From positions 4,994 through 68,993 of the forward strand of contig CAZETW010000004.1 in the NCBI GenBank assembly GCA_964515295.1: a stretch of DNA of 64,000 bases, in the 5' to 3' direction. Shown piece by piece: positions 3,674 to 64,000 of the stretch; within the stretch, counting starts at the first letter, position 1, and each line of letters starts with the position of its first letter. A model generated the notes under the pieces. It was not told the origin of the DNA. It did not search any database and saw only the letters and a list, made by a program, of their open reading frames with translations. Source of the stretch: an uncultured bacterium (GTDB taxonomy: Bacteria; Zhuqueibacterota; QNDG01; CAYUAG01). Both the position numbers and the translations under genes were made by a program.

Positions 3674-3689
3674 AATGCATTATCCTTTT

Positions 3690-4252: not shown

Positions 4253-4280
4253 ATCAGTGGGTCAGCAACATTATATACAA

Positions 4281-4427: not shown

Positions 4428-4492
4428 ATAATTAAACCTCCGTAAATTTTATAGAGACCATAAGATACATAACTTTTTATAATAAAATCAAG

Positions 4493-26529: not shown

Positions 26530-26928
26530 ATGCTGAAAGAATTAACAGTAAAAACTTCTACAAGAACAGAACTTATTCTTGTAGACCGGAAAGTTACCGG
26601 AGCTGTAAAAGAAAGCGGAGTTTCAGAGGGTATTTGTGTTTTATGGGTGCCGCATACAACAGCTGCAGTTACCATAAATGAAAATGCAGATCCGGATGTG
26701 GTACGGGATATTCTCTATGAAACTGAGAAGATAGTCCCTTTTCAGAATGGGTATCACCACAGTGAAGGTAATTCTGCAGCTCATATTAAATCCAGTCTTT
26801 TCAATCCTTTTCTCAGTTTAATTATTAAAAATTCTGAACTTATTCTGGGAACCTGGCAGTCAATATATTTCTGTGAGTTTGACGGGCCGAGAACACGCAG
26901 GCTTCTGGTCAAGATAATGGGGGATTGA
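26530..26928 (+). CDS. yjbQ: YjbQ family protein (UPF0047; secondary thiamine-phosphate synthase-like)
   Basis: 132 aa; conserved LWVPHTTAAVTINENADPDV and HSEGNSAAHIKSSL blocks. Confidence 0.8.
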   Translation: MLKELTVKTSTRTELILVDRKVTGAVKESGVSEGICVLWVPHTTAAVTINENADPDVVRDILYETEKIVPFQNGYHHSEGNSAAHIKSSLFNPFLSLIIKNSELILGTWQSIYFCEFDGPRTRRLLVKIMGD

Positions 26929-46700: not shown

Positions 46701-47082
46701 CTGTTTTTCTATAGTCGATCTCATCAATGACCTTGCGCATTATAAATATTCCCAAACCGCCTTTTTTTCCGATATTCACATATCTGTCAAGGTCAGGATT
46801 TTTTACTTTTCTGGGATCAAAAGTTTTCCCCTGATCAATGAGAGAAACAGTAACATTCTGTTCTCTTATTATCATCCTGACTGTTATAAAACCTTCCCAG
46901 TCACGATAAGCATGACGGATTATATTTGTACCTGCTTCATCTATGGCCATTTTAAAGGCATTGATGATGTTTTCACTGACACCATATTTTCTGCCTACTT
47001 TGGTGATAAAATCACGCATTTCGCCCAGATTTCCAATATCAGCGGGTACTTTTAATTCTTTTTTCTTTACTTTTTTAAACAT
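43726..47082 (-). CDS. Multidomain signalling protein: RsbW-like GHKL serine kinase + 2 TM with extracytoplasmic sensor + HAMP + PP2C (RsbU/SpoIIE) phosphatase + transposase-type HTH + acidic tract + C-terminal TPRs
   Basis: 1118 aa; DEAGTNIIRHAY and GGLGIFIMRKVIDEI (HATPase_c_2); two TM helices; GDYFDF...TDGITEA...DDITLVAIR (PP2C-SIG); LSVKEACKRENVSTSTYYKYRKKY and PDYGAKRISEEL (IS481/IS3 OrfA-like HTH); E/D-rich region; 3 TPRs. Confidence 0.8.
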   Translation of the reverse strand: MFKKVKKKELKVPADIGNLGEMRDFITKVGRKYGVSENIINAFKMAIDEAGTNIIRHAYRDWEGFITVRMIIREQNVTVSLIDQGKTFDPRKVKNPDLDRYVNIGKKGGLGIFIMRKVIDEIDYRKTVEGNELRLTKIRELDVSKKFSIPELSFSMKTRYSLIASGILTFLILIFSIWNYIYQGKKVFNTYLEEGQKLASTVVQNSAEFLANEETWELARISAELQHNHTPLVSEIIIVDSTGSIQGAVNMENLLKPFSLPRKYRKKSDSLYVYDYAGVGSVYDINKPAEFEIDDNRYILGSVHIMLNKSFVDGNVAQKRKSIFWRSLVILVSGCIGVFVLVYTTMSPFKKLSHWVKALGRGEAEDVMEFDNSDEVGEIAQAFNDITEKFRETQEHLAEQERLQKEVQVAQDIQQTLLPASFPDIEGYEISTYYEAAKEVGGDYFDFVEVDNDTLGIVVADVSGKGVPGSLVMTMIRTALRTEARGNKNAADVLAKVNSFVMKDMKRGMFVTIFYVILDSKKRSINYASAGHNPMILYRGSTKKSYYLNPKGFPIGIKLPDDSLFNKTIESDTLHLRPEDSLIVYTDGITEAMNHNRERFGDERFLSVIREYGDLNVEPFVNKIRDEIIIFSEGFAQTDDITLVAIREKLKAEDVLFNHRLRLMKLVDKKGLSVKEACKRENVSTSTYYKYRKKYNKKGKEGLYDGRKITKIEDKHISIEDRAKIIDIIKNNPDYGAKRISEELKSDKYDNVEIDEKRIYDELVKSKLNTKELRLAFIEKGGRKALKKPGTPFVTLDGKIVNKPTIVEQSVDVEDEDRKVIKEEEKDFEEVISEEPEEVISEHESEIHEKTDHILNDFIGSSEDEDIITPESEEEAPAESLEEKEEQKQDIVKEIPQESEEEIDELEEIEETLDHKDIYYSDVFDEQDVEEEIASFTADELLDEEQHEDIEYGKDKQEEEETSFLKMSEGLDVQKRKRVPEEKKPNPEEEKRIREKRIQRFLKSGKWFYKQGSYEKAIIAIKKVLNEDPTNLNALHYLGDAYFKIGNLDKSEYYYDKVRRVQPDNLTVAENLGVIYANRGEYKKAVFQWNEVLKRTPERRDLFERIKRMQQTLRKQVL

Positions 47083-52000: not shown

Positions 52001-55000
52001 TTTAATTCCGCTTCTTCTTCAATAATTACTGTTCCCCATCCTGCATTATCAGTGTTGTCAGAAACCTGTAATTCTGTATTTATTTCAGTACCTGAAACAG
52101 AGGCGTTTATTTTACATTCTCCAGTGCTGTTTTCTCCTGTATGAATAACCTGATAGTTCAGACTGTCGATAGTTTCACCTTCAAGAATCCATCCTCCTTT
52201 AGCAAGAGAATCCGGTCGTATTACTGCCCAATTATCTCCAATACTGAAAGAAAGAGAAGTGTTTACAGCAGCCGAAACAGAATCAATCAACACACTGCTT
52301 TCACCCCGGTTACTCAGTACTACTGCTATTGACCAGTTTGTGTCCTGAGCAACTGTTACTTCATTCTGGGAGGTGATGATTTCATTGACAATCAAATCAG
52401 CCGGCGTCTGTACATTAACTGAAGTCCAGGCTTGATCAGTTAATTGTTCACCAGCGATAGTGGAAGTATATAAAAATCCCTGTATGAGTGCTGAGCCTTT
52501 ATCCGCACCGGTACTGTCTATGGTTACAACTAATGTATCTGTAGAATAACCGGATAATATTTTTGTACCACTATTCTTAAATGTATCAGGAATTGATATT
52601 TGATAATCATTTTTCAGTATCCCGTCAGTTTTTATATTTAACCCGATACTGTCAAGAGTAACATTGTTGCTGCTCAGGTTTTCCACAGTCATAATAAGGA
52701 ACCAGTCTTTGTTTTGATTTGCAGTTATATGCTGTACAAGAGTAGAGTAATCATTTTTTACCGGTTTAAAATCCAAAATTCTCAGCCCCGGTGCATTTAT
52801 AACATTAAAACTATTAGAAACTCCACTGGGTGCAGGTTCCTCTGCACCTGTTTCTGTAACTGTAATAACATTACCTGAGTATTGGGTGTTCACTGTAACG
52901 CTTCCATTCCATATACCGTTAACAAAATTCGAACTTTTTTGCGGTTGTATAGTAGCGGAAGAATCAGTGATATCAACAGTACCGGTAAAATTGGATTTGA
53001 CATTATCATTTTCATCATAGGTAGTGATATTTAACGGAAACGGCTGACCTGTTACCTGAGTATTGATCAAGCCTATTTCAAAATAAGACACTTGTCCGGG
53101 AATAACTATAATGGAACCGGTATGAGCTGATATATCAGTTTGTGGTTTATGTGTCTTTATATTGCCGCTTCCCGGTTTACTGGGGATATAGGTGATGTCA
53201 GATTTATTTGAGATGTTAACTGCAGGAGTTAATCCCTGGGAACTCCAATCTACAATTTCAGTTCCTCTGAAGTTTCCATAGCCGTCATATCCTACAGAAT
53301 AAAGATCCAGACTTTCTCCTACACTTAAGGTGTCGTTAATTATTTCTTCTCCTTCATGAATAGGAACATTTTTTATCTTAAGCTGAGACAGAGTTCCTGG
53401 ATTTACTAAAATATCACTCACAACAGAAGAAATATCGTTTACCTGGCCTTTCAGCGCAACTCCGCTTTCTGCTTTTACTAATATCTGATTAGCCTGCCCT
53501 GAACCGTTTATCACCTGAATATCATTGAAAATCGGAGACGACCCATTGGGAGAATTCCCTCCCAGATTATTACAGGTTACAGTAACCATACCTGACCAAT
53601 TATTCTGATATTTATCCTGTGCATCAGTTAGTGTTAAGGGAAATGGTATTCCTGCCGTTTGAATTGAGCCGCAATTCAAGGCAAATGTGTCTATGGAAGC
53701 ATACGTGACCGTAATACTGCTGCTGGTCTTACTTATTTCTCCATCAGTAACAGTTACGGTTTGTTGGGGGGAATTATATAAAATAAAAGATGAACCGAAG
53801 AATACTTTTTGTCCGTTATTCCATCCGGTTCCGTTATCAACCGGCAGTGTTGCCGGATATGGTTCTTTATCTGAAGAACTCCAGATAATAATTCCTTCAT
53901 AATCGGTTTTTTTATTTTTATAGCTGTCAAATGCAGTTACCGTAACCCCGTAGGAGAAAGGCTGTCCGGCACGCCTGGTTTCAGGTAATCCTTCTATAGT
54001 AAAATCACCAAGTTCGCCAGGGAGGACCAGGATTGAATGACTGGTTCTGCTTACTGTCCCGTCAATTACTTTGATTGTCTGGGAGGGTGCATTAAATAAA
54101 AGAAAAGAAGAACCACTAAACGTTTTGCTTCCATTTACCCAGCCTGTTCTGTCATCTGTAGGTAATGCTGCAGGGTAAGGAGTGCCGTCAGAAGAATTCC
54201 AGATAACAATTCCGGAATAATTAGTTTTTAAATTATTATATTCATCAAAAGCAGAGACGGTAACATTACTATTGAATTGCTGACCTGCAATAGTACTGGA
54301 TGGAACTCCGCTTAACTCAAATCTGTCAAGATCTGTTGCATATACAGTAATCGGATCTGATGTTTCGATGACGCTCCCGTCCTGAACTGTAACAGTTTGT
54401 TCAGTGGTATTGTAGAGTTTAAATGAAGTTCCCGGAAAAGTCTTTTTTCCCCCACTCCATCCGGTTCCGTCATCTTCCGGAAGATCAGCAGGATATGGAA
54501 TACCGTCACTGGATACCCAGTCCACTGTACCCTGGTAGTCATTTTTGACATTTCCATAAAAATCATAAGCAGTAATTTCAATATCATTGTTAAAAACAGA
54601 ACCTGCTTCAACGCTGCCGGGGATTCCGCTTATCTTAAAACTATCAAGCGCTGCCGGTTCAACTGTTACATTATATGTAGTACTGGTTATAGAGCCATCT
54701 GATACAGAAAGCCATTGAGTACCTGCTGTACATAATTTGAATAGGGCACCACTGAATTTTTTTGATCCGTTATTCCATTCACTGCCGTCATCAGTGGGAA
54801 GTAAGACTTTTTCGTTAGTATCAGATGTATGCCAGGTGACAGTACCGTTATATGTATCTTCAATTTGCCCGTATTGATTATAGGCAGTCACTTCAATACT
54901 GTCAGGGAACTGCTGGCCTGCTTGAACAGTAGCTGGTACATTTGTTAGCTCCAATCTGGCTAAAGTCCCGGCATTTGTTTCAGGTGCTTTTAAAGGGTGA

Positions 55001-55098
55001 TTAACTTGTGCCCCCAACGTTTTATTGACATAAAAATTAAGTGTCACCCCCGAAAGGAATACTGCGGTCAAAAAGATTTTTTTCAAGGATATATTCAT
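49009..55098 (-). CDS. Giant secreted repeat protein with T9SS (Por) C-terminal sorting domain
   Basis: 2029 aa; signal peptide; at least 4.5 tandem ~105-aa repeats near N-terminus; C-terminal ~90 aa NFPNPFGSPG...IYNLIGELV...GVYILVM...KIAVVK matches T9SS CTD. Confidence 0.85.
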   Translation of the reverse strand: MNISLKKIFLTAVFLSGVTLNFYVNKTLGAQVNHPLKAPETNAGTLARLELTNVPATVQAGQQFPDSIEVTAYNQYGQIEDTYNGTVTWHTSDTNEKVLLPTDDGSEWNNGSKKFSGALFKLCTAGTQWLSVSDGSITSTTYNVTVEPAALDSFKISGIPGSVEAGSVFNNDIEITAYDFYGNVKNDYQGTVDWVSSDGIPYPADLPEDDGTGWSGGKKTFPGTSFKLYNTTEQTVTVQDGSVIETSDPITVYATDLDRFELSGVPSSTIAGQQFNSNVTVSAFDEYNNLKTNYSGIVIWNSSDGTPYPAALPTDDRTGWVNGSKTFSGSSFLLFNAPSQTIKVIDGTVSRTSHSILVLPGELGDFTIEGLPETRRAGQPFSYGVTVTAFDSYKNKKTDYEGIIIWSSSDKEPYPATLPVDNGTGWNNGQKVFFGSSFILYNSPQQTVTVTDGEISKTSSSITVTYASIDTFALNCGSIQTAGIPFPLTLTDAQDKYQNNWSGMVTVTCNNLGGNSPNGSSPIFNDIQVINGSGQANQILVKAESGVALKGQVNDISSVVSDILVNPGTLSQLKIKNVPIHEGEEIINDTLSVGESLDLYSVGYDGYGNFRGTEIVDWSSQGLTPAVNISNKSDITYIPSKPGSGNIKTHKPQTDISAHTGSIIVIPGQVSYFEIGLINTQVTGQPFPLNITTYDENDNVKSNFTGTVDITDSSATIQPQKSSNFVNGIWNGSVTVNTQYSGNVITVTETGAEEPAPSGVSNSFNVINAPGLRILDFKPVKNDYSTLVQHITANQNKDWFLIMTVENLSSNNVTLDSIGLNIKTDGILKNDYQISIPDTFKNSGTKILSGYSTDTLVVTIDSTGADKGSALIQGFLYTSTIAGEQLTDQAWTSVNVQTPADLIVNEIITSQNEVTVAQDTNWSIAVVLSNRGESSVLIDSVSAAVNTSLSFSIGDNWAVIRPDSLAKGGWILEGETIDSLNYQVIHTGENSTGECKINASVSGTEINTELQVSDNTDNAGWGTVIIEEEAELKILELTNMAPNAPYVNINQEFDMNIKIANTGGDGLHDIGLHLTSEHPWFNFPTRIPVDPLEGGETSVITVTGNAFQTYLYNEIFTVSGGGWTDNKNDSLTSKNPVDDTTKVHVQQPGTLSIEKIITSTNKVMGGQTEPWFVKVVLANGQSQAPIDYYAEIQIDTLKSNISFWHEDLKLTDYITECTTKNISLKSGTRDTLVYKVKLTGLYGGEVEVKTNIQGVEKNTGNIKQNNASALISVQSNPAFRIVSTVIDAYNTTEGGNAYLDTNQEFKVIVSVENGLGHAVKNINVHLESEISNIENSDLTILSLSPSQRDSVIFYLTASAVENISGEQFTASITSAKKDDSEVPVGPALDPVAFAYIQKPADLSIKLKLSNPIGEFTTNQVFILTAHLENHGSGAIDTTGKIRITLPSPYTLSGSVNNSITLNSPATWEIKSPNIATDWQTINVTLYKPPLARNTGQVAKIEKKTEKISVITHKSFLTSSLGIASPPGAVNQKVSSDQYFVVRASLTWNYVRDITASITLPTGYTTSDNLDKKVISNEVTWQIRAPKGATDKRTIYVNASGYDALQQEDVIISAEQKGIEIQTVKKADLALNLNIDDKSVSPSQEFILYAEIENKGEADTLGTAMITLEQLPEGYTTKESPVHYATQEKTNWMIKAPPYSTGETATISAYISKIPWDQNTSEEAYASKVSADIGVTTVGTWLSVTELDQPDSISSQVISGQNNVWLTGFEMINRGEAGANGVLLTKIKFNLLDFSHQPLNPSSIYKKIKLCKLIKKNGRYYYNKDSCLATLSSSQIPAENPVNILIDHMNPIKTQDTLKIALLADMHTTEKTVNFMLEMPDSTYITAVDEYVPYVSLPVLSPSGDRFELKSNWQKQVISSEDVGTDDKAYLLNFPNPFGSPGKKTTTIVYYLDKDTNVNFSIYNLIGELVWSESFSSTDPEGRKGLHSRGSNQVEWNGTNDNGNTVLNGVYILVMDTDDNIVKTKIAVVK
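53570..54966 (-). repeat. Tandem ~310-bp coding repeats (~105-aa units) inside the giant T9SS cargo gene
   Basis: Protein-level repeats LxxFxIxGxPxxxxAGQxF...VTAxDxYGNxKxxYxGxVxWxSSD...LPxDxGTGWxxGxKxFxGxSFxLxNxxxQTVTVxDG...TSxxITV observed four to five times. Confidence 0.7.
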
Positions 55099-55414: not shown

Positions 55415-56401
55415 TTACTTCTCATCAGCAAGTAATGATGTAATAGCTGCAGTGTGTACAATATCGTCTGTACTGCACCCCCGGGATAAATCATTAATCG
55501 GTTTTCTTAATCCCTGAACAACAGGTCCGACAGCCTCGGCTTTTGCAAATCGTTGAACAAGTTTGTATCCGATATTTCCTGCATTCAGGTCAGGGAAAAT
55601 GAGAACATTTGCATTTCCTGCAACCACACTCCCGGGTGCCTTCTTTTTAGCAATCTCAGGTATAACAGCTGTATCAACCTGCAGTTCTCCATCAATTTTT
55701 AATATAGGATTTCGTGATTTTGCAATCTTGGTTGCCTCAACAACTTTATCTGTCAGTTCATGTTTTGAACTTCCATAGGTAGAAAATGACAGCATTGCTA
55801 TAATAGGTTCTGTATCAGTGAGTTTTTCATAGGTTTTCGCGGAAGAAATTGCTATACTTGCCAGTCCTTCAGCATCAGGATCAGGAACTACTGCACTGTC
55901 AGCAAAAATTATCATTCTATTCCATCCGGGAATGATCATAAGAAATGCCCCTGAAACTATAGATACCCCTTCGGCAATACCAACACAATGAAGTGCAGAA
56001 CGTATGACATCCCCGGTAGTATTATTTGATCCGGCAACGCTTCCATGGACCTCATCATTCCGGACCATCATTGCTCCGAAAAAAAGAGGATTGGAAACAA
56101 TATTCTCAGCTTCTTTTTCTGATATTCCTTTATGTTTTCTTAATTCATAATATTCTGAAATATATTTATCCAGATGCGGGGAATTTTGGGGATTTATTAT
56201 TTTTATATCATCAAGATCAATGTTTTCTTTTGATATTTTTTTCGAAATATCATCTTCATTACCGAGAATAGTTACTCTGCAGACTTCTTTTTTCCTGAGT
56301 AGTGCAGCTGCTTTTATAATCCGCTCGTCAAATCCTTCAGGTAACACTATATGATTATTTTTTTGGGAAGCTTTATAAAGAATATCCCTTAAGAATTCCA
56401 T
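55415..56401 (-). CDS. pta: Phosphate acetyltransferase / phosphate butyryltransferase (short Pta/Ptb type)
   Basis: Start at MEFLRD with AAGGAG SD 8 nt upstream (the ORF track's earlier ATG would overlap coaD); 328 aa phosphotransacylase fold. Confidence 0.8.
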   Translation of the reverse strand: MEFLRDILYKASQKNNHIVLPEGFDERIIKAAALLRKKEVCRVTILGNEDDISKKISKENIDLDDIKIINPQNSPHLDKYISEYYELRKHKGISEKEAENIVSNPLFFGAMMVRNDEVHGSVAGSNNTTGDVIRSALHCVGIAEGVSIVSGAFLMIIPGWNRMIIFADSAVVPDPDAEGLASIAISSAKTYEKLTDTEPIIAMLSFSTYGSSKHELTDKVVEATKIAKSRNPILKIDGELQVDTAVIPEIAKKKAPGSVVAGNANVLIFPDLNAGNIGYKLVQRFAKAEAVGPVVQGLRKPINDLSRGCSTDDIVHTAAITSLLADEK

Positions 56402-56420
56402 GAATATCGTCTCCTTTCGG

Positions 56421-56900
56421 TTAATAATCAAATTTATTTTTTATAGCCTCAGTAACATTTGGTGGTAAAAAAAGATGTACATCCCCTTTCATTGCCGCTA
56501 CTTCTTTGGCAATAGAGGAATTTATATAAATATATTCTTCATTTGGCATTAAATATACGGTTTCAAGTGAAGGTTTAAGTTTTCTGTTCATTAAAGCCAT
56601 TTGAAATTCATATTCAAAATCCGATACTGCTCTTAATCCTCTGATAATTGCATGTGCACCTTTGTCTTCAGCATATTCCACTAATAGGCCACTGAATGAT
56701 TCAACAGTTACGTTATCAATATTCTTGATTGCTCCGGTAATTAAATCCTTACGTTCTTGCAGGGAAAAGAGGGGTGTTTTCTTTATATTAGTGGAAACAG
56801 CAATAATAACATGATCAAAAAGTTGACCGGCGCGTTTAATAATGTCTAAATGCCCTTTGGTGATAGGATCAAATGTGCCGGGATAAATTGCGGTTTTCAT
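56421..56900 (-). CDS. coaD: Phosphopantetheine adenylyltransferase
   Basis: 159 aa; MKTAIYPGTFDPITKGHLDII (T/HxGH nucleotidyltransferase motif). Confidence 0.92.
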   Translation of the reverse strand: MKTAIYPGTFDPITKGHLDIIKRAGQLFDHVIIAVSTNIKKTPLFSLQERKDLITGAIKNIDNVTVESFSGLLVEYAEDKGAHAIIRGLRAVSDFEYEFQMALMNRKLKPSLETVYLMPNEEYIYINSSIAKEVAAMKGDVHLFLPPNVTEAIKNKFDY

Positions 56901-56902: not shown

Positions 56903-57472
56903 TTAAATTCCTTCATTATCTATGATTGGACTGTAAATTGATATGACATTAATTCCAAAAGTTCTTTGCTTAATCATTTTTATTGTATGACTATCTTTAT
57001 CATTATCTTTTTTACCATGTTTTAGTATAAGTAATCCATTATCCTTTAACAGTTTGTATCTATCTATATAATTTACAATTTTTTCTCTTAGATTGTGTTT
57101 AAAAGGAGGATCGGCAAATATTATATCAAAATCATATCTCTTTTCCCCCAGTCTGATTAATTGGGTAAAGACATTTCCCTTTATTATCAATCCCTTACGG
57201 CTAAAATTACATAATTGTATGTTTTTTTTTATTATATTTATACTATATTGTGATCTGTCAATAAAATTTGCTCTAAAAGCACCGCGGCTAAGTGCTTCAA
57301 TACCCAGAGCTCCGCTTCCGGCAAAAAGATCAAGAACAACGGCATTTTCAATTTTATATTGTAGATAAGAGAAGATAAATTCTTTGACTATTCCTGTAGT
57401 AGGTCTGAATTTATGTCCAGAAGGACCATATAATTTTCTTCCCTTAGCTTGACCTCCTATAATTCTAATCAC
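56903..57472 (-). CDS. rsmD: 16S rRNA (guanine966-N2)-methyltransferase RsmD
   Basis: 189 aa; DLFAGSGALGIEALSRGA and FADPPF motifs. Confidence 0.88.
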   Translation of the reverse strand: MIRIIGGQAKGRKLYGPSGHKFRPTTGIVKEFIFSYLQYKIENAVVLDLFAGSGALGIEALSRGAFRANFIDRSQYSINIIKKNIQLCNFSRKGLIIKGNVFTQLIRLGEKRYDFDIIFADPPFKHNLREKIVNYIDRYKLLKDNGLLILKHGKKDNDKDSHTIKMIKQRTFGINVISIYSPIIDNEGI

Positions 57473-57499: not shown

Positions 57500-58777
57500 T
57501 TAAGATCTTAAGGTTAAATCTATCACAAACTTAATAGTTTCACCTTTGAAGTCTTTAACATTTACAGGGGTAATAATCATTTTGTCTACACTATATTTAC
57601 CACTGTTTCTCAATAATATGGTTAGATATGTTATTAAGTTATTACTATTCCCTTCAACATTAATACGTACCGGAATGGTAGTTTCACCGGATTGTGTATT
57701 TGCTGGAAAGGTCTTACTATCTTTAAATACTAAAGAATTATTTTGTGCTGTTCTTTGCAACCATTGTTGTAATAATTGAGCTGAATTAAAATTTTTAGCT
57801 GAAACGGGCTGACTTATTACCGAACCAGGTAATTCTCCGGAAATTACTCCCCAGTATCGCATCTCTCCATTAGTCCTAAAGCCATCTTCCGGAGATGTCT
57901 CATATTTTCCGGTATTGAAAATTGTTTTAATTTTCTCTGCCATTTCACCAGAAACATTAGGCTGTAATGAGGCATATCCGGCTCTGAAGTATTTATCTTT
58001 AATATCGATAATGATAGTACCAAGACAGTTGTTCTGAGAAAAATAGTTGATCAGAGAACCTGTGTTTTTTGCTAATTCAGTAGTTTGTATTGCTGTGCCA
58101 GGAGCACTTACTTTTTCTGTTGTTTCACCTGGTTTGACGGGTTGTTTTTCTGAATCAGGAGCAGTTACTCCGGTACTGGATGTAGTGTCTTTTTTCCCTG
58201 CAGCTAATTGCTTACGTTGCTGTTCAATCAATTCCTCAATATCAGGTTTTTCCGGAATATTATTTTGTATATCCCTGAGAGCTTCAACTTTTGGTTTATA
58301 CACAAATTGATATCCCAGCGCAACTATCACTACAATCCCCAATAGTATTAACAGAAATGGAGAGACACCTTTTTTCTTTACTTCACCATAGGTATAATCT
58401 TCATCTTTACTATCTTTAGCAGGTCCTTCCAAGTCAGGAATTTCTTCTTCGTTGTCTAACTCGTCATCTAAAAATTCTTCATCATCTAAAGAAGATACAT
58501 CGTCCAATTCACTGTCAATATCTTTATCAATATCAGATCCGGTGTCTTCGTCTAATCCGTCTTCAAATTCATCGTCTAAATCCAAATCCATATTTTGATT
58601 TTTATTGAAATCTCCACCAAGTTTTTCCTCATCGTTAAAACTTAATTTCTCATCAAAATCACCACCTAAATCCTCTTTGTCTTCTTGAGAATCATCCCTT
58701 GCATTTTTTTCTTTTTTTCCTTTTTCCTCTTCCTTTTCCTCTTCATCATCATCTTTAAAAAGATTAATGTCTACCAT
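57500..58777 (-). CDS. PilN-like inner-membrane protein with long acidic cytoplasmic insertion
   Basis: 425 aa; N-terminal MVDINLF resembles the PilN INLLP PilM-binding motif; ~130-aa D/E-rich tract; single TM; ~270-aa periplasmic domain. Confidence 0.45.
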   Translation of the reverse strand: MVDINLFKDDDEEEKEEEKGKKEKNARDDSQEDKEDLGGDFDEKLSFNDEEKLGGDFNKNQNMDLDLDDEFEDGLDEDTGSDIDKDIDSELDDVSSLDDEEFLDDELDNEEEIPDLEGPAKDSKDEDYTYGEVKKKGVSPFLLILLGIVVIVALGYQFVYKPKVEALRDIQNNIPEKPDIEELIEQQRKQLAAGKKDTTSSTGVTAPDSEKQPVKPGETTEKVSAPGTAIQTTELAKNTGSLINYFSQNNCLGTIIIDIKDKYFRAGYASLQPNVSGEMAEKIKTIFNTGKYETSPEDGFRTNGEMRYWGVISGELPGSVISQPVSAKNFNSAQLLQQWLQRTAQNNSLVFKDSKTFPANTQSGETTIPVRINVEGNSNNLITYLTILLRNSGKYSVDKMIITPVNVKDFKGETIKFVIDLTLRS

Positions 58778-58837
58778 GATATAATTCCTCCCTTAAATTC
58801 TCAATAATGTAACCCCTCTTCCTCATTCCTAAAAATT

Positions 58838-59788
58838 TTATTTGAATTGTTTTAATGCTACCCCGATAGATGATGTAAATTTTTCAGGATTTTCTCTGAA
58901 TTTTTCATTATTTGAAATTGATTGTGAAATTGCAATTTTAGAAAATGGATTCAGTATTTCAATGGGCACTTGTATATTTTTAGTCAGTTGATTCTGGAAA
59001 TCATAAATTAAATCACGTCCGGTTAAATAAATTTTTTCAAAATCTTCAATTTTATTGACTATTTTATGACCAAAAATTAATCTTTTTAATTCTTTTAATA
59101 ATAAATCGCTTATTTCTGAAACACTTACTATGGTTGAATTATCTTTATTTTTTAATGAAATATTATATGATAAATAGAATTCTTCATCCTTAATAAAAAT
59201 AATACAAATATATTCTCTTTGTAAATCAATTAAAATATTGATCCCTTCACTTAGTTGGTAATTTTCAACTAATGAGCGGATATTTGAAAAAACATCAACG
59301 TCTATATCCTTTAAAATCATGCCGGTCTTATGTATGAGTTTTCTGATCATAGACAAAAATTTTTTTCTAAGTAAGACAACAACATATAAAGGATTACCAG
59401 AAAATGTCTGGAACGGCAACCGCTGATAATCAACAATATAGTCATCTAAAGAAGAAATAACAAACTGTTGTGATTCCCAATAGAGTTGCTGTTGTATAAA
59501 ATTTTTATCAAGACCAAGGGCAATAGGGATTCGTTTGATCAAAACACAACCGCTATATATTGAAACACCTACTTCTTTACCAGCTCCTAAATCTTTATAC
59601 AGATCTTTTAAAATAACACTCTGCGTGTCCAGAAAATTATTTTGAGACATCATTGTTTCCATATCAAAAGATTGTAATAGATGTTTGGAAACAAGATTCT
59701 GGACACTCTTATTTTTCATCAAAACAAGGCACATTTGATCTGGGTATATAGATAACCCAATATAAGGATTTTCAGAGTGCTTTTTCAC
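58838..59788 (-). CDS. PilM-like actin-fold protein (type IV pilus/competence assembly)
   Basis: 316 aa; N-terminal IGLSIYPDQMCLVLM and C-terminal NPF...SSIGVALKQF resemble PilM termini. Confidence 0.5.
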   Translation of the reverse strand: MKKHSENPYIGLSIYPDQMCLVLMKNKSVQNLVSKHLLQSFDMETMMSQNNFLDTQSVILKDLYKDLGAGKEVGVSIYSGCVLIKRIPIALGLDKNFIQQQLYWESQQFVISSLDDYIVDYQRLPFQTFSGNPLYVVVLLRKKFLSMIRKLIHKTGMILKDIDVDVFSNIRSLVENYQLSEGINILIDLQREYICIIFIKDEEFYLSYNISLKNKDNSTIVSVSEISDLLLKELKRLIFGHKIVNKIEDFEKIYLTGRDLIYDFQNQLTKNIQVPIEILNPFSKIAISQSISNNEKFRENPEKFTSSIGVALKQFK

Positions 59789-59809
59789 TTAAATATTTTT
59801 TTATGACCT

Positions 59810-61558
59810 CTATTCGTCCCAACTTTTTGAGCCAACATCTGCTTTACCGTGATTTCTTATTTTACGTCCACCGAATACTTTTTCTATAAAAGGAACAGTA
59901 ATTTTTTTATATGTGGTGTCGTTATTTACCGGATCAATAATCATAATTTTTTTAACTTCTTCAGTGTCGACTATGGGACATTTGATCTCGAATTCCGGTG
60001 GAGAAACAGTATCATTATAGCTTACTAAATATTTTTCTTTAGCTACAGGGCAAATATCGACTGATTTTAACAGAGTTCCACTGAATAAAGGAACAATCCC
60101 TAAATCGTATAATATGGAATTTGTTTTTGATTCAGTATTAACTATGATATTCCACAGCTCTTTGTTATTAGGAAGATCAAGGTTATTTACAATTTCAGCA
60201 GTTTTGTCTTTTCCTAATATTTTCATCCATTTAACAGAGGCATCAAGTTTTTTCAGAGCAGTATTTTTCTGCTCTAATTTTTCTTTTTCTTTTTCCCACA
60301 ATACATCTTGTTCCTGTCTCCACATCAGATCTTTAATTTCATACCAAAATTCTTCTTCATTCTTTTCTTGTTCAGTAATCCATTCCTGATAGGCTTCATC
60401 TTCCCAGGTTAATCTTCTGTCACTGAGAAACAGATCCTTTTTAACATCCTGAACATAATTTTTATTATGATCCAACCATTTCTCATATTCTTTTTCTTTC
60501 AGGCTGTCGACAATGGTGTTCCAAAGAGAATCTTTCTGGGCTTCAAAAGTTTCCTGTAAAGAATCCGGAACAGTTGCAAGTTTGTTCTCCAGCCATTCTT
60601 TTTTTCTTTCCAATGTCCACCTTTTGTCCAGAATTCTCTTCCACACTTCAGAATTTTCTTCTAACCATTGTTGACCTTCTTTTTTCCAGAGTTTATCGCG
60701 GACTTCTTTCCATTTTAATTCTTTCCTGTTACTCCACAATACCCTTTTTTGCTCATCAATAATGGAATCTTTTTTTGCCTGGGAGAGTGTGTCAAGCTTT
60801 TCTGACCATTGAGGTCTCTTAACTGTTTCCCAGGTATCACGATCTCTACCTTCTTCCCCGCCCCAGATATCTTTGCTTAATGCAAAGTTTACAGAATTTG
60901 CCAGTTCTTCATAAAAATATGGTCTATAGTGATCCCAATAGCGTGTATCTTCCAGATCTGTGTTTCTTCTGAATTCCCGTACGGTATATCTTCGCATATA
61001 GGTTGAGGTAGCCTGATCTTCAAGGATATCCTGTACGTTTTTTCTGGGTAATAAAGTGTTCCATGCCACTGCATTATCAATCACTTCTTTACTTTTTACA
61101 GAATCAGGGCTGGTTATATATTGTTTTAAGCCTTCAACAAGTTTATATCGTAATGAATCCCAATGAGAAAGATTTGATACCGGCTCTCCATTTTCTAACT
61201 TCGTTAATATCAGATTACTCAGGTCCTCCGGAAGATTTTTCTGCATTACAAGAGTTTTCAGTTTATCTTTTTGTATCACTTTATCCCAATATAATACAGA
61301 ATCCAATCTTGCCAGAGCAGTACTATCTTCCACAACATTATTAATTAATTTGGGGATGCTGTCAGAATAAGTACGATAATTATTATAATACTGATATTGG
61401 TAATTCTGAAGTGCATCCATGCGCGCCCTGCATATCTGCTGTAAATTTTCCTGCTTTTCCCAAATATTTTTTGGATAAAGAATTGCCCAAAGAAGAACGA
61501 TTATTAATACTACAATGATCACTTCTAAAATAAAACTCCCCTTTGAATTTTTAATCAT
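59810..61558 (-). CDS. Prepilin-like protein with tryptophan-periodic K/E-rich repeats
   Basis: 582 aa; class III signal MIKNSKG|SFILEVIIVVLIIVLL with Glu at +5; body contains ~10-residue-period W repeats (WEKQE..., LWSNRKELKWKEVRDKLWKKEGQQWLEENSEVWKRILDKRW...). Confidence 0.55.
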   Translation of the reverse strand: MIKNSKGSFILEVIIVVLIIVLLWAILYPKNIWEKQENLQQICRARMDALQNYQYQYYNNYRTYSDSIPKLINNVVEDSTALARLDSVLYWDKVIQKDKLKTLVMQKNLPEDLSNLILTKLENGEPVSNLSHWDSLRYKLVEGLKQYITSPDSVKSKEVIDNAVAWNTLLPRKNVQDILEDQATSTYMRRYTVREFRRNTDLEDTRYWDHYRPYFYEELANSVNFALSKDIWGGEEGRDRDTWETVKRPQWSEKLDTLSQAKKDSIIDEQKRVLWSNRKELKWKEVRDKLWKKEGQQWLEENSEVWKRILDKRWTLERKKEWLENKLATVPDSLQETFEAQKDSLWNTIVDSLKEKEYEKWLDHNKNYVQDVKKDLFLSDRRLTWEDEAYQEWITEQEKNEEEFWYEIKDLMWRQEQDVLWEKEKEKLEQKNTALKKLDASVKWMKILGKDKTAEIVNNLDLPNNKELWNIIVNTESKTNSILYDLGIVPLFSGTLLKSVDICPVAKEKYLVSYNDTVSPPEFEIKCPIVDTEEVKKIMIIDPVNNDTTYKKITVPFIEKVFGGRKIRNHGKADVGSKSWDE

Positions 61559-61968
61559 CTGTTTTCCTCCATAGTTATATTTGTGTTAATTAGATTTATT
61601 TTTAAAAAAGGTTTTAATTGTTCAATTGTTTTCTCCCCAATTCCTTTAACATTTTTCAGTTCATTTATGGAAGTAAAATATCCTTTTGTTTTTCTGTATT
61701 GTACAATTCTTTCTGCTTTTACAGGACCAATTCCTGGTAATGTTTTAAAATCATCCAGGTTTGCTTTATTTATGTTAACACATGTAACTTGATTATCTTT
61801 TTCTGTGACTGTTTCATCATTAACGGTGACATCATTATTCATTACCAGGGATGGAGTTTCCGGTAATGATTTCCATTTAATTTGAAAAATACGGATACAC
61901 AGTCCAGCTAAAAAAGTTAATAGCAGGAATATGATAAATTTACTTTCTTTAGGAGTAAAACCCAGCAT
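61555..61968 (-). CDS. comEA: ComEA family DNA-binding protein (helix-hairpin-helix)
   Basis: 137 aa; N-terminal TM; INKANLDDFKTLPGIGPVKAERIV and LKNVKGIGEKTIEQL HhH motifs. Confidence 0.85.
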   Translation of the reverse strand: MLGFTPKESKFIIFLLLTFLAGLCIRIFQIKWKSLPETPSLVMNNDVTVNDETVTEKDNQVTCVNINKANLDDFKTLPGIGPVKAERIVQYRKTKGYFTSINELKNVKGIGEKTIEQLKPFLKINLINTNITMEENR

Positions 61969-63068
61969 TACTGCACCTTTGGATATATTTCTTTCATATG
62001 GGAAAGATCCTTAAAAAGTTTTTTTGTCGTTTTGGAAATTTTCTCCGGTGTCCATATAATCACCCTTACCAATTGATCACCTTTGCGTTTTGAATGCAAA
62101 TGTGGAATCCCCTTATTTCGCATCCGTAATATTTTACCTGATTGAGTTCCGGGATCAATATACAGTTTTGCTTTACCATCTAACGTTGGAATTTCCACTT
62201 CATCACCTAAAACAGCCTGAGTTATACTTATATACAGTATATATAGTATATCCTCTCCATGTCTTTCAAAATTTTCATCTTTTTTTTCTTCAAACACTAC
62301 ATGAACATCGCCGGGTGGTCCGCCTTTGGGCCCGACATCACCTTTGCCTCTTATAGTCAAATAATTACCTGGTGAAACCCCTGGTGGAATTTTTACATTT
62401 ATTTTTGTTGTTCCTTTTTTTCTTCCTTCACCTCTGCAGTCAGGACATGGATCGGTAATTATGTTCCCTTCACCTCCACATCGGGGACAGGTTTTAATAT
62501 TGACAAACTGCCCCAGTAAAGATTGACTTACCTGACGTATTTGTCCTGAACCCTTACATTCAGGACAGGTAGAAATTGAATTTTTATCTTTTGCACCTGC
62601 TCCATTACATGTTTCACAGGTTACTTTTCTTTTTATATTTAATTGTTTCTCAGCTCCTTTTGCGATTTCCTGTAAAGAAAGCTGTAGTTTTAACTGTAAA
62701 TCATTGCCTCGTAAAGAGCCTCCTCTTTTTCTCTCTCTTCCAAAGAAATCACCGAATCCTCCCAGTCCGCCGAATCCTTCCATAAAGGTACGTAATGCAT
62801 CAGAAAGATCAAAATCAAAACCGCCGAATCCTGCTCCTGCACCCTTAACACCTGCATGTCCGAATCGGTCATATCTTTCCTTTTTCTGGGGATTACTGAG
62901 AATTTCGTATGCTTCTGCAGCTTCTTTAAATTTTTCTTCAGCATCCTTATTATCCGGATTTTTGTCAGGATGATATTTTATTGCTAATTTACGATAAGCC
63001 TTTTTTATTTCTTCTGTATTTGCATTTCTGCTGACTTCTAAGACTTTGTAATAATCGCGTTTCGTCAT
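61968..63068 (-). CDS. dnaJ: Molecular chaperone DnaJ
   Basis: 366 aa; J domain with HPD, G/F region, four CxxCxGxG repeats. Confidence 0.95.
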
Positions 63069-63088
63069 GTCAATTTCCCCTTAAAGCA

Positions 63089-63619
63089 TTATTTACTCAC
63101 TACGACTTTGGCATGACGTAATACAGTTCCATCTAAGAAATATCCTTTCTGATGTTCTTCCAACACAATATCTGGTTCTACACCCTCCTTTTTTACCTGC
63201 ATTATTGCATCATGAAAATCGACCTCAAAAGGCTCACCCTTAGCATGCATAGGTTCCAGGCCTTGTTCTTCAAGCGTACTTAATAAATTTTTAAAAATCA
63301 ATTCTATTCCTTTGTATAACTCTGCATCCTTGTTTTTTGTGTGTTCGGGATCCAGAGATCTTTCCAAATCATCAATGATCGGCAGTAATTTTTTGATCAG
63401 ATCAGCATTTGCATTCTTAATAATCCGGGTAACCTCTCTTTCAGTGCGTTTTTTATAATTATCGAGATCTGCTCTGGCTCTCAATAGTGTATCTTTTAAA
63501 AATTCATTTTCTTTTTTCAGCTTTTGTAATTCCTCTCTCAGTTCTTTATTCGTCTTAGTTTTACTGCTTTTTGTATCTTTTGTTTTTTCTGTTGTTGTAT
63601 TATTTTTCTTTTTGGCCAT
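63089..63619 (-). CDS. grpE: Nucleotide exchange factor GrpE
   Basis: 176 aa; coiled-coil N-terminus, C-terminal GrpE beta domain. Confidence 0.9.
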   Translation of the reverse strand: MAKKKNNTTTEKTKDTKSSKTKTNKELREELQKLKKENEFLKDTLLRARADLDNYKKRTEREVTRIIKNANADLIKKLLPIIDDLERSLDPEHTKNKDAELYKGIELIFKNLLSTLEEQGLEPMHAKGEPFEVDFHDAIMQVKKEGVEPDIVLEEHQKGYFLDGTVLRHAKVVVSK

Positions 63620-63652
63620 TATGAGTAATCTTTATTTTAAAAATAATTATAT

Positions 63653-64000
63653 CAGCTTAGATAATAATTAATGGTTTCTGTAACACAATCTACTAACGGC
63701 AGAATGGTATCATATCGTAATCTGGTCGGCCCGATTACTCCCAGTGTCCCATAATCTTTACCCCGTTGATAGTTACTCTTAATCACTGTAAAATTTTTTA
63801 ATTTTTCGTTCTCATTTTCAGTTCCGATTGTAATTTCTGTTTTTTCTATTTTTCTGTTAAACAGGGTAATTAATTTTTTCTTATCATCAATTAGATAAAA
63901 GAATTGCCCCAGTAAGTTTGTATCTGAAAATTCCGGTTGATTAATAATATTATATGTACCCCAGGTATGGATATCCAGAGGTTCAGAAAAATTAAATAGA
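63653..64000 (-). CDS. hrcA: Heat-inducible transcription repressor HrcA, C-terminal part (truncated by window end)
   Basis: Manual translation ends ...YQRGKDYGTLGVIGPTRLRYDTILPLVDCVTETINYYLS*, matching HrcA C-terminus (GVIGPTRM.Y); position upstream of grpE. Confidence 0.6.

What the first reader, a model, noticed from the sequence alone, without database searches (positions are those of the whole stretch)
57500..61968. Type IV pilus/competence-like module (ComEA, pilin-like, PilM-like, PilN-like) inserted in the hrcA-grpE-dnaJ ... rsmD-coaD-pta housekeeping operon
Four consecutive minus-strand genes between dnaJ and rsmD have stop/start overlaps or gaps of at most 50 nt. They encode a HhH DNA-receptor ComEA, a prepilin-signal protein, a PilM-like actin-fold protein and a PilN-like bitopic protein. 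No secretin, PilB/PilT ATPase or PilC platform is in the window. The physical linkage of a DNA-uptake and pilus alignment subcomplex with heat-shock chaperones and CoA/rRNA-modification genes is unusual. It may indicate stress-coupled competence, or a divergent minimal Com-pilus system in this lineage.
Basis: partly seen in the sequence, partly recalled or inferred. Interest (0 to 1): 0.65.

Follow-up and report, generated by a model that had tools for sequence, protein, structure and literature searches.

The report
Conserved ComEA–giant pilin–PilM–PilN/O cassette
Between the heat-shock gene dnaJ and the housekeeping gene rsmD, this uncultured bacterium carries four real genes that look like part of a type IV pilus DNA-uptake machine: a DNA-binding ComEA, an oversized pilin, a PilM and a combined PilN/PilO protein. 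The block is inherited at the same place throughout a little-known candidate phylum and was not recently inserted.

Summary
Four co-oriented, tightly packed genes lie between dnaJ and rsmD.

Gene identities:
- **ComEA:** HhH domain, above the Pfam and TIGR00426 cut-offs.
- **PilM:** PF11104 above its cut-off, plus PDB PilM hits. The ATP-binding loops are degenerate.

The order dnaJ–comEA–pilin–pilM–pilN/O–rsmD–coaD recurs in every one of about 24 related loci, including MAGs of GTDB phylum SM23-31. In more distant relatives the pilin is an ordinary 154 aa. The block is therefore ancestral, not an insertion.

Because it has PilM and PilN/O, it belongs with the T4aP/T2SS lineage, not the Com pilus of single-membrane bacteria. 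The best reading is the inner-membrane part of a DNA-uptake pilus whose motor, platform, peptidase, secretin and ComEC lie elsewhere; I could not test that. Heat-shock coupling remains speculative. I rate it a new variant of a known kind, of moderate interest.

The parts
61555..61968 (-). comEA-type gene (137 aa). It has an N-terminal membrane anchor (about residues 10-28, nt 61885-61941) and a periplasmic HhH2 DNA-binding domain (residues 63-122, nt 61603-61782). Its start overlaps the dnaJ stop (TAATG).
   Evidence: PF12836 HHH_3 at 4.2e-23, 81.7 bits against a cut-off of 27. TIGR00426 ComEA HhH repeat region at 64.4 bits against 53.1. Full-length TIGR01259 at 80.7 bits against 152, so below cut-off. 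The hydrophobic N-terminus is conserved in all relatives.
59810..61558 (-). Giant pilin-like gene (582 aa). Leader MIKNSKG (nt 61538-61558), with predicted cleavage after Gly7. Helix alpha1 spans residues 9-61 in the model (mature residues 8-61 = nt 61376-61537), with Glu+5 and Pro+22. A Trp-rich all-helical insertion covers residues about 68-500 (nt 60059-61357). The C-terminal four-strand sheet carries invariant Cys503 and Cys527 (nt 59813-60058).
58838..59788 (-). pilM-like gene (316 aa, GTG start). It encodes a cytoplasmic actin-fold protein. The phosphate-binding loops look degenerate: 'DIGS' is replaced by 'SIYP', and the phosphate-2 Gly by Gln.
   Evidence: PF11104 at 1.5e-12, 47.6 bits against a cut-off of 27. 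TIGR01175 at 49.6 bits against 133, so below cut-off. Amuc_1101 family at 1.6e-11. The family profile hits M. xanthus PilM (2.4e-24), Thermus PilM (2.3e-14) and P. aeruginosa PilM (about 5e-14), and the printed alignment shows the replaced loop. Family alignment.
57500..58777 (-). PilN/PilO-type bitopic gene (425 aa). Invariant N-terminal peptide MVDINLFK (nt 58754-58777). Disordered acidic cytoplasmic linker, residues 9-135, net charge about -43 (nt 58373-58753). Membrane helix, about residues 140-172 (nt 58262-58360). Two consecutive alpha-beta-beta-alpha-beta-beta units in the periplasm, residues 230-320 (nt 57818-58090) and 330-425 (nt 57503-57790).
61968..63068 (-). dnaJ, the upstream flank. 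It is the last gene of hrcA-grpE-dnaJ, and its stop codon overlaps the comEA start.
   Evidence: DnaJ, DnaJ_C and DnaJ_CXXCXGXG domains. grpE at 63089-63619. hrcA is seen in the twin contig L001.
56903..57472 (-). rsmD, the downstream flank, followed by coaD (56421-56900) and pta (55415-56431). There is no predicted minus-strand terminator anywhere from grpE to pta.
   Evidence: PF03602 at 1.4e-50. PTA_PTB at 1.4e-120. The coaD assignment rests on the CTP_transf_like hit to the syntenic gene in relatives. Terminator scan.

Best explanation
The four genes are a vertically inherited cassette encoding the inner-membrane and periplasmic part of a type IVa-pilus/T2SS-lineage machine specialised for DNA uptake.

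Proposed mechanism (steps marked as shown or inferred):
1. PilM is a cytoplasmic actin-fold protein that has probably lost nucleotide binding. It clamps the invariant N-terminal MVDINLF peptide of the bitopic protein encoded directly downstream. The motif and gene adjacency are shown; the binding is inferred from the known PilM-PilN interaction.
2. That bitopic protein crosses the membrane once. It presents a PilO/GspM-fold periplasmic region built from two ferredoxin-like units. In one chain it may replace the usual PilN-PilO heterodimer, since no separate pilO gene exists in the cassette. The fold is shown; the replacement is inferred.
3. The 582-aa protein is a true pilin homologue with a leader ending in Gly, Glu+5, Pro+22 and a C-terminal sheet with two invariant Cys. 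Its alpha-beta loop has grown from nothing (154-aa relatives) to about 430 residues of Trp-rich helices. It is probably cleaved by a prepilin peptidase and built into a short pilus or pseudopilus. Because of its bulk it probably sits at the tip or is present in low copy number. This step is inferred.
4. The membrane-anchored ComEA binds incoming double-stranded DNA in the periplasm and holds it for a ComEC channel. The domain is shown; the role comes from established ComEA biology.

The extension ATPase, platform protein, prepilin peptidase, secretin and ComEC must be encoded elsewhere in the genome. The position behind dnaJ reflects an old, conserved operon-like block (dnaJ to coaD). It probably gives constitutive or housekeeping-linked co-transcription and not a dedicated heat-shock switch.
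For: **Gene identities**
- ComEA HhH domain above cut-offs.
- PilM above the Pfam cut-off, with PDB PilM hits of 2.4e-24 to about 5e-14.

**PilN-type peptide**
- Invariant MVDINLFK, found in all loci that contain the gene.
- Canonical INLL in distant cassettes.

**Pilin features**
- In 16 of the 17 locus entries with the gene (13 distinct leader sequences), the leader ends in Gly. Glu+5 is present in all 17, and is Gln in 2 of the 18 aligned family members. Pro+22 is invariant in the family alignment.
- Homologous 154-aa and 297-aa pilins sit at the same cassette position.

**Conservation**
- The order J-E-P-M-N-R, with gaps of -56 to +208 nt, holds in every locus that spans it.
- The relatives include three MAGs of GTDB phylum SM23-31 (PMC9040765 supplement).
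- The block survives a rearrangement that moved ftsEX-thiL-yjbQ 33 kb away in the window's lineage.
- The cassette proteins diverge faster (25-43% identity) than the neighbouring DnaJ (60-67%) yet are always retained.

**Literature**
- PilMNO is the hallmark of the T4aP/T2SS/MSH branch (PMC10191384).
- Large modular pilins are widespread and are thought to sit at the tip. Examples are GspK, with an alpha-domain insertion, and ComZ, which binds DNA (PMC8179133).
- T4aP plus ComEA is the standard DNA-uptake complex of double-membrane bacteria (papers listed; otherwise my own knowledge).
Against: - No PilB, PilC, PilD, PilQ, PilT or ComEC is present in the 64-kb window or within 10 kb of the cassette in any relative. 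Whether they exist elsewhere in these genomes could not be tested.
- The ComEA-pil linkage could be plain synteny. The flanking housekeeping genes are just as conserved in position, so adjacency alone is weak functional evidence.
- The pilin misses the curated N-methylation-domain HMMs. Residue +1 is Ser or Asn, not Phe. One relative has Glu at position -1 (L010).
- One lineage (L006) has no pilin gene in the cassette.
- PilM falls below the TIGR01175 cut-off and lacks the DxG loops.
- The first periplasmic unit of the fourth protein has no sequence match to anything. Its ferredoxin-like nature rests only on the AF2 secondary-structure pattern.
- A subunit carrying a 430-residue insertion may not be able to polymerise at all.
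Confidence: 0.55

Rival explanations
1. The pilin, PilM and PilN/O genes serve a type IV filament with a different job, such as adhesion, twitching, or a T2SS-like pseudopilus for secretion. ComEA is merely a syntenic neighbour with an independent role.
For: - The fourth protein's only profile hits are to T2SS GspM families.
- The pilin's best fold match among pilins is the T2SS pseudopilin EpsG, and its best N-terminal HMM hit is GspG.
- The whole neighbourhood is syntenic, so adjacency is weak evidence of shared function.
- In model organisms comEA is not linked to pilMNOPQ (papers listed; my own knowledge).
Against: - comEA stays glued to the pil genes in every lineage seen, including distant ones with a 154-aa pilin and a different downstream context.
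- It also stays in the lineage that lost the pilin.
- comEA and the pilin gene overlap by 4 nt in the window's clade and in L004/L005.
- No T2SS genes (GspC, D, E, F) are nearby.
Confidence: 0.2
2. The module is a stress-coupled competence system. It is transcribed from the HrcA-controlled heat-shock promoter, so DNA uptake is induced by heat or proteotoxic stress.
For: - The dnaJ stop overlaps the comEA start in the window and its close relatives.
- No intrinsic terminator is predicted between grpE and pta in the window, or between hrcA and pta in L002.
- The position after dnaJ is conserved in all lineages.
Against: - No CIRCE operator within 4 mismatches anywhere in the twin contig L001, which covers the region upstream of hrcA.
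- Only degenerate CIRCE-like repeats are found, about 250 nt upstream of hrcA in L009 and L010.
- Other lineages have gaps of 8-60 nt between dnaJ and comEA, which could hold promoters.
- The same putative transcript would also carry rsmD, coaD and pta. This argues for a housekeeping super-operon and not a stress regulon.
- There are no expression data.
Confidence: 0.12
3. The cassette does not build a filament. The 'pilin' is an uncleaved, membrane-anchored, rod-like periplasmic protein. Together with nucleotide-free PilM and the PilN/O protein it forms a static envelope scaffold derived from pilus parts. ComEA may tether DNA or play another envelope role.
For: - The ATP-binding loops of PilM are degenerate.
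- The 430-residue helical insertion, with long 27-42-residue helices and only coiled-coil-like Foldseek matches, looks like an elongated rod and would be awkward in a polymer.
- The N-methylation HMMs are not matched.
- One relative has Glu at position -1.
- No motor, platform or secretin genes are nearby.
Against: - Gly-1, Glu+5 and Pro+22 are conserved across 30-100% identity, and these matter only for processing and polymerisation.
- The ancestral form in sister lineages is an ordinary 154-aa pilin.
- Bulky modular pilins are known to be incorporated into filaments (PMC8179133).
Confidence: 0.13

Closest known systems
T4aP alignment subcomplex PilM-PilN-PilO(-PilP-PilQ) of P. aeruginosa, M. 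xanthus and Thermus thermophilus. In Thermus and Vibrio it works with ComEA in natural transformation.
   Same: - PilM actin-fold protein (PDB profile hits).
- A downstream bitopic partner with an INL(L/F) N-terminal peptide.
- A PilO/PilN ferredoxin-like periplasmic fold.
- A ComEA HhH DNA receptor in the same organism.
   Different: - One gene replaces pilN plus pilO, with two tandem periplasmic units and a 135-residue acidic cytoplasmic linker.
- No pilP or pilQ follows.
- comEA and a pilin gene are fused into the same cassette.
- The PilM nucleotide-binding loops are degenerate.
- The curated equivalog cut-offs TIGR01175 and TIGR01259 are not reached, and PF05137 and PF04350 give no hit.
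Modular or large minor pilins: GspK (alpha-domain inserted in the pilin sheet), Thermus ComZ (DNA-binding module) and S. sanguinis PilB/PilC (PMC8179133).
   Same: A small pilin module carries a bulky extra module. The likely position is at the tip or in low copy number. For ComZ the context is DNA uptake.
   Different: - The extra module here is about 430 residues of Trp-rich helices with roughly 8-residue Trp spacing. It lies between alpha1 and the sheet and is not appended at the C-terminus.
- Only about 20 full-length representatives exist among 1.84 billion proteins.
- It is the only pilin gene in the cassette.
Akkermansia muciniphila Amuc_1098-Amuc_1102 pili-like cluster (PMC5332112).
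   Same: - The PilM-like protein hits the Amuc_1101 family model at 1.6e-11.
- Both are compact, divergent T4P-derived clusters in poorly studied double-membrane phyla.
   Different: - The Akkermansia cluster includes a secretin (Amuc_1098) and has no ComEA.
- Amuc_1101 is about 600 aa.
- The score against the Amuc_1101 model is far below its cut-off (43.8 bits against 650).
- The two belong to different phyla.
Com pilus of single-membrane bacteria (ComGA-ComGG plus ComEA/ComEC).
   Same: ComEA with a membrane anchor is linked to a pilin gene for DNA uptake.
   Different: Com systems lack PilM/N/O (PMC10191384). Here there is no ComGA or ComGB nearby. The organism has two membranes, shown by LptF/G and MlaD.

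Membership tests
ComEA (HhH2 periplasmic DNA receptor) | Tandem helix-hairpin-helix DNA-binding domain above curated cut-offs | tested here: met
   PF12836 at 81.7 bits against 27. TIGR00426 at 64.4 bits against 53.1.
ComEA (HhH2 periplasmic DNA receptor) | N-terminal signal or membrane anchor that places the HhH domain outside the cytoplasm | tested here: met
   A hydrophobic stretch at residues 10-28 is conserved in all relatives. The topology itself is inferred.
ComEA (HhH2 periplasmic DNA receptor) | Full-length comE subfamily model TIGR01259 | tested here: not met
   80.7 bits against a cut-off of 152.35. Only the C-terminal 77 residues align. This is a short ComEA; no Pfam family was reported for its N-terminal half.
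ComEA (HhH2 periplasmic DNA receptor) | Binds dsDNA and is required for uptake | not testable with these tools
   Needs biochemistry or genetics.
Type IV pilin (class III signal peptide) | Short basic leader ending in Gly(-1), Glu at +5, and a hydrophobic alpha1-N of about 20 residues | tested here: met
   MIKNSKG|SFILEVIIVVLIIVLLWAILYP. In 16 of the 17 locus entries with the gene (13 distinct leader sequences), Gly is at -1; L010 has Glu. Glu+5 is present in all 17, and is Gln in 2 of the 18 aligned family members. Pro+22 is invariant in the family alignment.
Type IV pilin (class III signal peptide) | Match to curated prepilin N-terminal cleavage/methylation models (PF07963, TIGR02532) | tested here: not met
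   Neither model is listed at E up to 1-10. Only weak hits to GspG (0.0011), ComGC (0.055) and PilA (0.25). Residue +1 is Ser or Asn, not Phe.
Type IV pilin (class III signal peptide) | Pilin fold: a long alpha1 helix packed on an antiparallel beta-sheet | tested here: inconclusive
   [not shown]
Type IV pilin (class III signal peptide) | Cleaved by a prepilin peptidase and polymerised | not testable with these tools
   No pilD in the window.
PilM | Pfam PilM_2 above the gathering score, and similarity to solved PilM structures | tested here: met
   PF11104 at 47.6 bits against 27. Profile hits to 3jc8 PilM (2.4e-24), 2ych (2.3e-14) and 5eou/5eox (about 5e-14).
PilM | NCBIfam TIGR01175 subfamily cut-off | tested here: not met
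   49.6 bits against 133. This is a divergent member.
PilM | ASKHA phosphate-binding loops (DxG, with Gly in phosphate-2), as in ATP-binding PilM | tested here: not met
   In the HMMER alignment, M. xanthus 'LDIGSTS' pairs with the family's 'lslhpdq'. The window has 'SIYPDQ', and the phosphate-2 Gly is Gln ('DLQREY'). Loss of nucleotide binding is inferred from this.
PilM | A partner encoded downstream with the PilN N-terminal binding peptide | tested here: met
   MVDINLFK is invariant.
PilN | Conserved N-terminal INLLP-type peptide and bitopic topology | tested here: met
   The window's lineage has MVDINLF. L022 has MITINLL and L025 has MPEINLL. There is a single membrane helix. That this motif binds PilM is established knowledge from Thermus and Pseudomonas structures; it was not tested here.
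PilN | Pfam PF05137 (PilN) match | tested here: not met
   No hit in the window protein or in any of the 14 family members at E up to 1.
PilO / GspM | Periplasmic ferredoxin-like domain of the PilO/GspM type | tested here: met
   [not shown]
Complete T4aP / DNA-uptake machine | Extension ATPase PilB, platform PilC, peptidase PilD, secretin PilQ and channel ComEC in the genome | not testable with these tools
   They are absent from the 64-kb window and from the 10 kb on either side of the cassette in all relatives.
Single-membrane-type Com pilus (ComG) | ComGA/ComGB with ComGC-GG pilins and no PilMNO | tested here: not met
   PilM and a PilN/O protein are present, and there is no ComGA or ComGB nearby. 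The organism has two membranes (LptF/G). PMC10191384.

The most novel reading that the evidence does not exclude
The cassette is a previously unrecognised, streamlined DNA-uptake pilus module that characterises candidate phylum SM23-31 and its relatives. In this reading:
- a single-chain PilN-PilO protein replaces the heterodimer;
- PilM works without nucleotide;
- the sole pilin has evolved a giant Trp-rich helical module, with weak HMG-box-like and spectrin-like structural echoes, that captures DNA directly at the pilus tip and hands it to the co-encoded ComEA;
- the whole unit is co-transcribed with the HrcA chaperone operon, so uptake tracks proteotoxic stress.
Probability: 0.1. Interest if true: 0.75.

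Novelty: new variant of a known kind. Interest (0 to 1): 0.5.

Why it matters
**A marker for an unstudied phylum.** The cassette is a clean, phylum-wide genomic marker, and it predicts natural competence in a candidate phylum (SM23-31 and relatives) about which almost nothing functional is known.

**Two structural variants of well-studied parts.**
- A one-gene PilN/PilO protein with tandem periplasmic domains and a long acidic tether.
- A pilin whose alpha-beta loop grew from nothing to about 430 residues of Trp-rich helices.

Related lineages hold the 154-aa, 297-aa and roughly 580-690-aa forms at the same locus. This size series shows stepwise how modular pilins arise. If the helical module binds DNA, it would be a new class of DNA-receptor pilin.

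**What is ordinary.** The component families are all known, and the 'unusual linkage' to chaperone genes is most simply old synteny.

Tried and rejected
- **Recent insertion or mobile element: rejected.** Repeat and tRNA scans around 56.8-62.3 kb found only short AT-rich chance repeats and no nearby tRNA. The only integrase-family gene is 33 kb away next to topA. Synteny is universal in relatives.
- **CIRCE operator search.** None within 3-4 mismatches in L001. Only degenerate sites in L009 and L010.
- **Promoter scan.** Uninformative in this AT-rich DNA: 50 hits against 40 expected.
- **Foldseek of the giant pilin against the PDB.** No hit better than E 0.6, and only coiled-coil noise.
- **Pfam scan of all 18 giant-pilin family members at E up to 10.** Nothing recurrent, and no HMG-box or N_methyl hit.
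- **Internal duplication of the two periplasmic units of the fourth protein.** hhalign finds no similarity. Unit 1 alone has no PDB or Pfam match.
- **Prepilin-like 'G-F-T-x-x-E' at the ComEA N-terminus.** Rejected as a cleavage site. The leader is only 2 residues, and the Gly is replaced or absent in L019, L020, L022 and L023.
- **Literature searches.** MAG accessions gave nothing. No paper describes pili or competence in SM23-31.
- **Could not be done.** A search of the same genomes for pilB, pilC, pilD, pilQ and comEC.

Full report
**Observation.**
The minus strand of 57500-61968 holds four ORFs:
- 61555-61968, 137 aa
- 59810-61558, 582 aa
- 58838-59788, 316 aa, GTG start
- 57500-58777, 425 aa

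Upstream are grpE (63089-63619) and dnaJ (61968-63068). Downstream are rsmD (56903-57472), coaD (56421-56900) and pta (55415-56431).

The junctions are as follows. The dnaJ stop overlaps the comEA start (TAATG). The comEA stop overlaps the pilin start (ATGA). The remaining gaps are 21, 60 and 27 nt. I read a Shine-Dalgarno-like motif before the comEA, pilin and fourth-gene starts; for pilM the nearest is a GAGG about 18 nt upstream.

I scanned 38 ORFs of the window against Pfam, including every ORF of at least 200 aa that is not an antisense shadow. None is a secretin, PilB/PilT ATPase, PilC platform, PilD or ComEC. The rest of the window encodes housekeeping functions, among them MnmE, YidC, LptF/G, MutS2, DnaG, RecJ, SecA, TopA, XerC-like, HprK, MlaD, ThiL, RNase R and a PreP peptidase. 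A motif scan finds no second prepilin-type ORF.

**Gene 1, ComEA.**
- HHH_3 scores 81.7 bits (cut-off 27).
- The ComEA HhH-repeat model TIGR00426 scores 64.4 bits (cut-off 53.1).
- The full-length comE model TIGR01259 is not reached: 80.7 bits against 152.
- A hydrophobic anchor precedes the HhH domain in all relatives.

This is a short, membrane-anchored ComEA.

**Gene 2, a giant pilin.**
The N-terminus is MIKNSKG|SFILEVIIVVLIIVLLWAILYP. It has a short basic leader ending in Gly, Glu at +5 and Pro at +22.

- In 16 of the 17 locus entries that have the gene (13 distinct leader sequences), Gly is at -1. L010 has Glu there.
- Glu+5 is present in all 17. Two of the 18 aligned family members have Gln at that position.
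- Tyr28 and Pro29 are invariant in the family alignment.
- The curated N-methylation HMMs do not match. Only weak GspG, ComGC and PilA N-terminal hits appear.

The AlphaFold2 model was built on an 18-sequence alignment and is confident (pLDDT 84.3, pTM 0.67). It shows:
- a 53-residue N-terminal helix (9-61);
- an all-helical region from 68 to 500 with several 27-42-residue helices;
- a four-strand sheet (511-552) next to two invariant cysteines (C503, C527).

The protein has 26 tryptophans, 16 of them invariant, often spaced 8 residues apart.

The decisive evidence came from a profile search of 1.84 billion representatives. Only about 20 full-length family members exist. The next hits are ordinary pilins of 150-300 aa that match both the N-terminal 90 residues and the C-terminal sheet region. 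Three of these were looked up:
- P0122 (154 aa) lies in ftsX-hrcA-grpE-dnaJ-comEA-pilin-pilM-(301 aa)-rsmD-coaD-pta.
- P0109 (154 aa) lies in pilin-pilM-(334 aa)-rsmD-coaD.
- P0099 (297 aa) follows a comEA.

The 582-aa protein is therefore a pilin whose alpha-beta loop has expanded. It fits the concept of modular pilins (PMC8179133), but the module here is inserted, not appended, and is of unknown fold class.

**Gene 3, PilM.**
- PF11104 scores above the gathering cut-off (47.6 bits against 27).
- TIGR01175 scores below its cut-off (49.6 bits against 133).
- The family profile hits PilM of M. xanthus (2.4e-24), Thermus (2.3e-14) and P. aeruginosa (about 5e-14).

In that alignment the phosphate-1 loop 'DIGS' of PilM is replaced by 'SIYP/SLHP'. 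The phosphate-2 glycine is replaced by Gln. I infer from this that nucleotide binding has been lost.

**Gene 4, a PilN/PilO hybrid.**
The first eight residues, MVDINLFK, are invariant in the family. 'MVDINL' is present in all 19 loci that contain the gene. The distant cassettes have MITINLL and MPEINLL. This is the INLL-type peptide by which PilN binds PilM; that binding is established from Thermus and Pseudomonas structures and is my own knowledge.

After the peptide come, in order:
- a disordered linker with net charge about -43, to residue about 135;
- one membrane helix, at about residues 140-172;
- a confidently modelled periplasmic region (pLDDT above 90) with two consecutive alpha-beta-beta-alpha-beta-beta units.

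Pfam gives T2SSM_b at 22.1 bits against 21.7, on the second unit. T2SSM_b or T2SSM hits occur in 7 of 14 family members. PilN (PF05137) and PilO (PF04350) never match. The first unit has no detectable sequence relative and no similarity to the second.

With no separate pilO gene, a single-chain substitute for the PilN-PilO pair is the most economical reading. This is an inference.

**Distribution and synteny.**
The three families are tiny. In 5.8 billion proteins there are 29 PilM-like clusters, 20 giant-pilin clusters and 14 clusters of the fourth protein. None carries a functional name except two or three labelled 'PilM'.

Every locus recovered that spans the region has dnaJ-comEA-pilin-pilM-pilN/O-rsmD in that order, with gaps of -56 to +208 nt. 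The one exception is L006, where the pilin gene is cleanly missing.

Three relatives (Zod_Metabat.1186.1116 and .1387) are classified as GTDB phylum SM23-31, order QNDG01 (supplement of PMC9040765). The window's DnaJ is 60-67% identical to the DnaJ of the more distant relatives, including these three MAGs, while the cassette proteins are 25-43% identical. They evolve fast yet are always kept.

In the QNDG01 relatives, yjbQ-thiL-methyltransferase-ftsE-ftsX sits directly upstream of hrcA. In the window those genes lie 33 kb away on the other strand (26530-30173). The hrcA-to-pta block thus survives rearrangement of its surroundings.

There are no flanking repeats, no nearby tRNA and no adjacent integrase. 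'Inserted' is therefore not supported; the block is ancestral.

**Regulation.**
No intrinsic terminator is predicted on the coding strand between grpE and pta in the window. In L002 no terminator falls in an intergenic gap; the one plausible candidate sits at the end of pta. Co-transcription with dnaJ is therefore plausible.

No CIRCE operator is found within 4 mismatches in the twin contig L001, which covers the region upstream of hrcA. Only degenerate copies occur, about 250 nt upstream of hrcA in L009 and L010. Stress-coupled competence remains a speculation.

**Interpretation.**
PilMNO is the signature of the T4aP/T2SS/MSH branch and is absent from Com pili of single-membrane bacteria (PMC10191384). 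The organism has two membranes, shown by LptF/G. So this is not a 'minimal Com pilus'.

The best-supported reading (confidence about 0.55) is the inner-membrane alignment part of a T4aP-type DNA-uptake machine plus its periplasmic DNA receptor, with the motor, platform, peptidase, secretin and ComEC encoded elsewhere. The persistent fusion of comEA to the pil genes across distant lineages is the main argument for a shared DNA-uptake function.

The main weaknesses are two. The remaining machine components could not be searched for in the same genomes. And synteny of the whole neighbourhood dilutes the value of adjacency as evidence.

The rivals are:
- a pilus or pseudopilus with another function, with ComEA as a bystander (0.2);
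- a non-filament envelope scaffold (0.13);
- HrcA-coupled competence (0.12), which is a regulatory add-on and not an exclusive alternative.

**Novelty.**
All component families are known. The new elements are the fixed cassette architecture, the one-gene PilN/O protein with tandem periplasmic units and an acidic tether, the apparently nucleotide-free PilM, and above all the Trp-rich 430-residue loop expansion of the pilin. That expansion is documented by 154-, 297- and roughly 580-690-aa forms at the same locus.

I rate it a new variant of a known kind, with interest 0.5.

Noticed in passing
window 49009-55098 (-), and 47098-49008 (-): A 2029-aa protein built of Ig-like repeats, whose C-terminal sequence looked T9SS-sorting-like to me (not tested by profile), followed by a 636-aa TPR protein. 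A 2000-2300-aa counterpart (faint FlgD_ig hit in L006 only), usually preceded by a TPR protein, sits downstream of pta in most relatives that extend that far. It is a conserved neighbour of the cassette block.
   Followed up: no
window 61944-61968 (ComEA residues 1-8): The ComEA N-terminus 'MLGFTPKE' mimics a prepilin G|FTxxE site. However, the leader is only 2 residues, and the Gly is Asp, Cys or absent in L019, L020, L022 and L023. It is probably a general ComEA 'F[TS]xxE' motif and not a peptidase site.
   Followed up: partly
window 58373-58753 (fourth protein, residues 9-135): A disordered cytoplasmic linker with net charge about -43 lies between the PilM-binding peptide and the membrane helix. 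It is about 30 residues long in L022, about 95 in L025 and 80-135 in the SM23-31-type loci. This is a lineage-specific expansion with no known role.
   Followed up: partly
window 60059-60125 (giant pilin, residues about 478-500); L002 9676-10035: An internal segment resembles a second, degenerate pilin N-terminus. In L002, 'KGSSLYQLGIVGLF' compares with the true N-terminus 'KGSIIYEILIVILI'. This hints that the C-terminal sheet module derives from a duplicated or fused pilin.
   Followed up: no
[not shown]
   Followed up: partly
L006 9605-10981; L010 6626-8443: One lineage (P0027/P0028, L006) has comEA directly followed by pilM with no pilin gene. In L010 the pilin has Glu instead of Gly at the predicted cleavage position -1.
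   Followed up: partly
window 58750-59500: GC content drops to 0.23-0.25 over the 3' half of pilM, against 0.31-0.40 in the neighbouring genes.
   Followed up: no
window 26530-30173 (+), compared with L002/L004/L007 at about 1000-4970: The yjbQ-thiL-methyltransferase-ftsE-ftsX block lies directly upstream of hrcA in the SM23-31 QNDG01 relatives. In the window it is 33 kb away on the opposite strand. A Tricorn-like protease precedes hrcA in the twin contig L001 instead.
   Followed up: partly
window 43726-47082 (-): A 1118-aa protein combines an anti-sigma-type HATPase_c_2 kinase domain, HAMP, a SpoIIE/PP2C phosphatase, HTH domains and TPR repeats. This is an unusual all-in-one architecture of partner-switching regulator type.
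   Followed up: no
window 61968-64000 and L001 3517-6217: The heat-shock operon is hrcA-grpE-dnaJ with no dnaK between grpE and dnaJ. No canonical CIRCE element is detectable upstream of hrcA.
   Followed up: partly
L024 4234-6393: A 563-aa member of the same pilin superfamily (P0138) carries a different helical loop expansion. It lies in another context, after an alpha/beta hydrolase and before an ORF that looks PilM-like by eye (not tested). Loop expansion may therefore have happened more than once.
   Followed up: no
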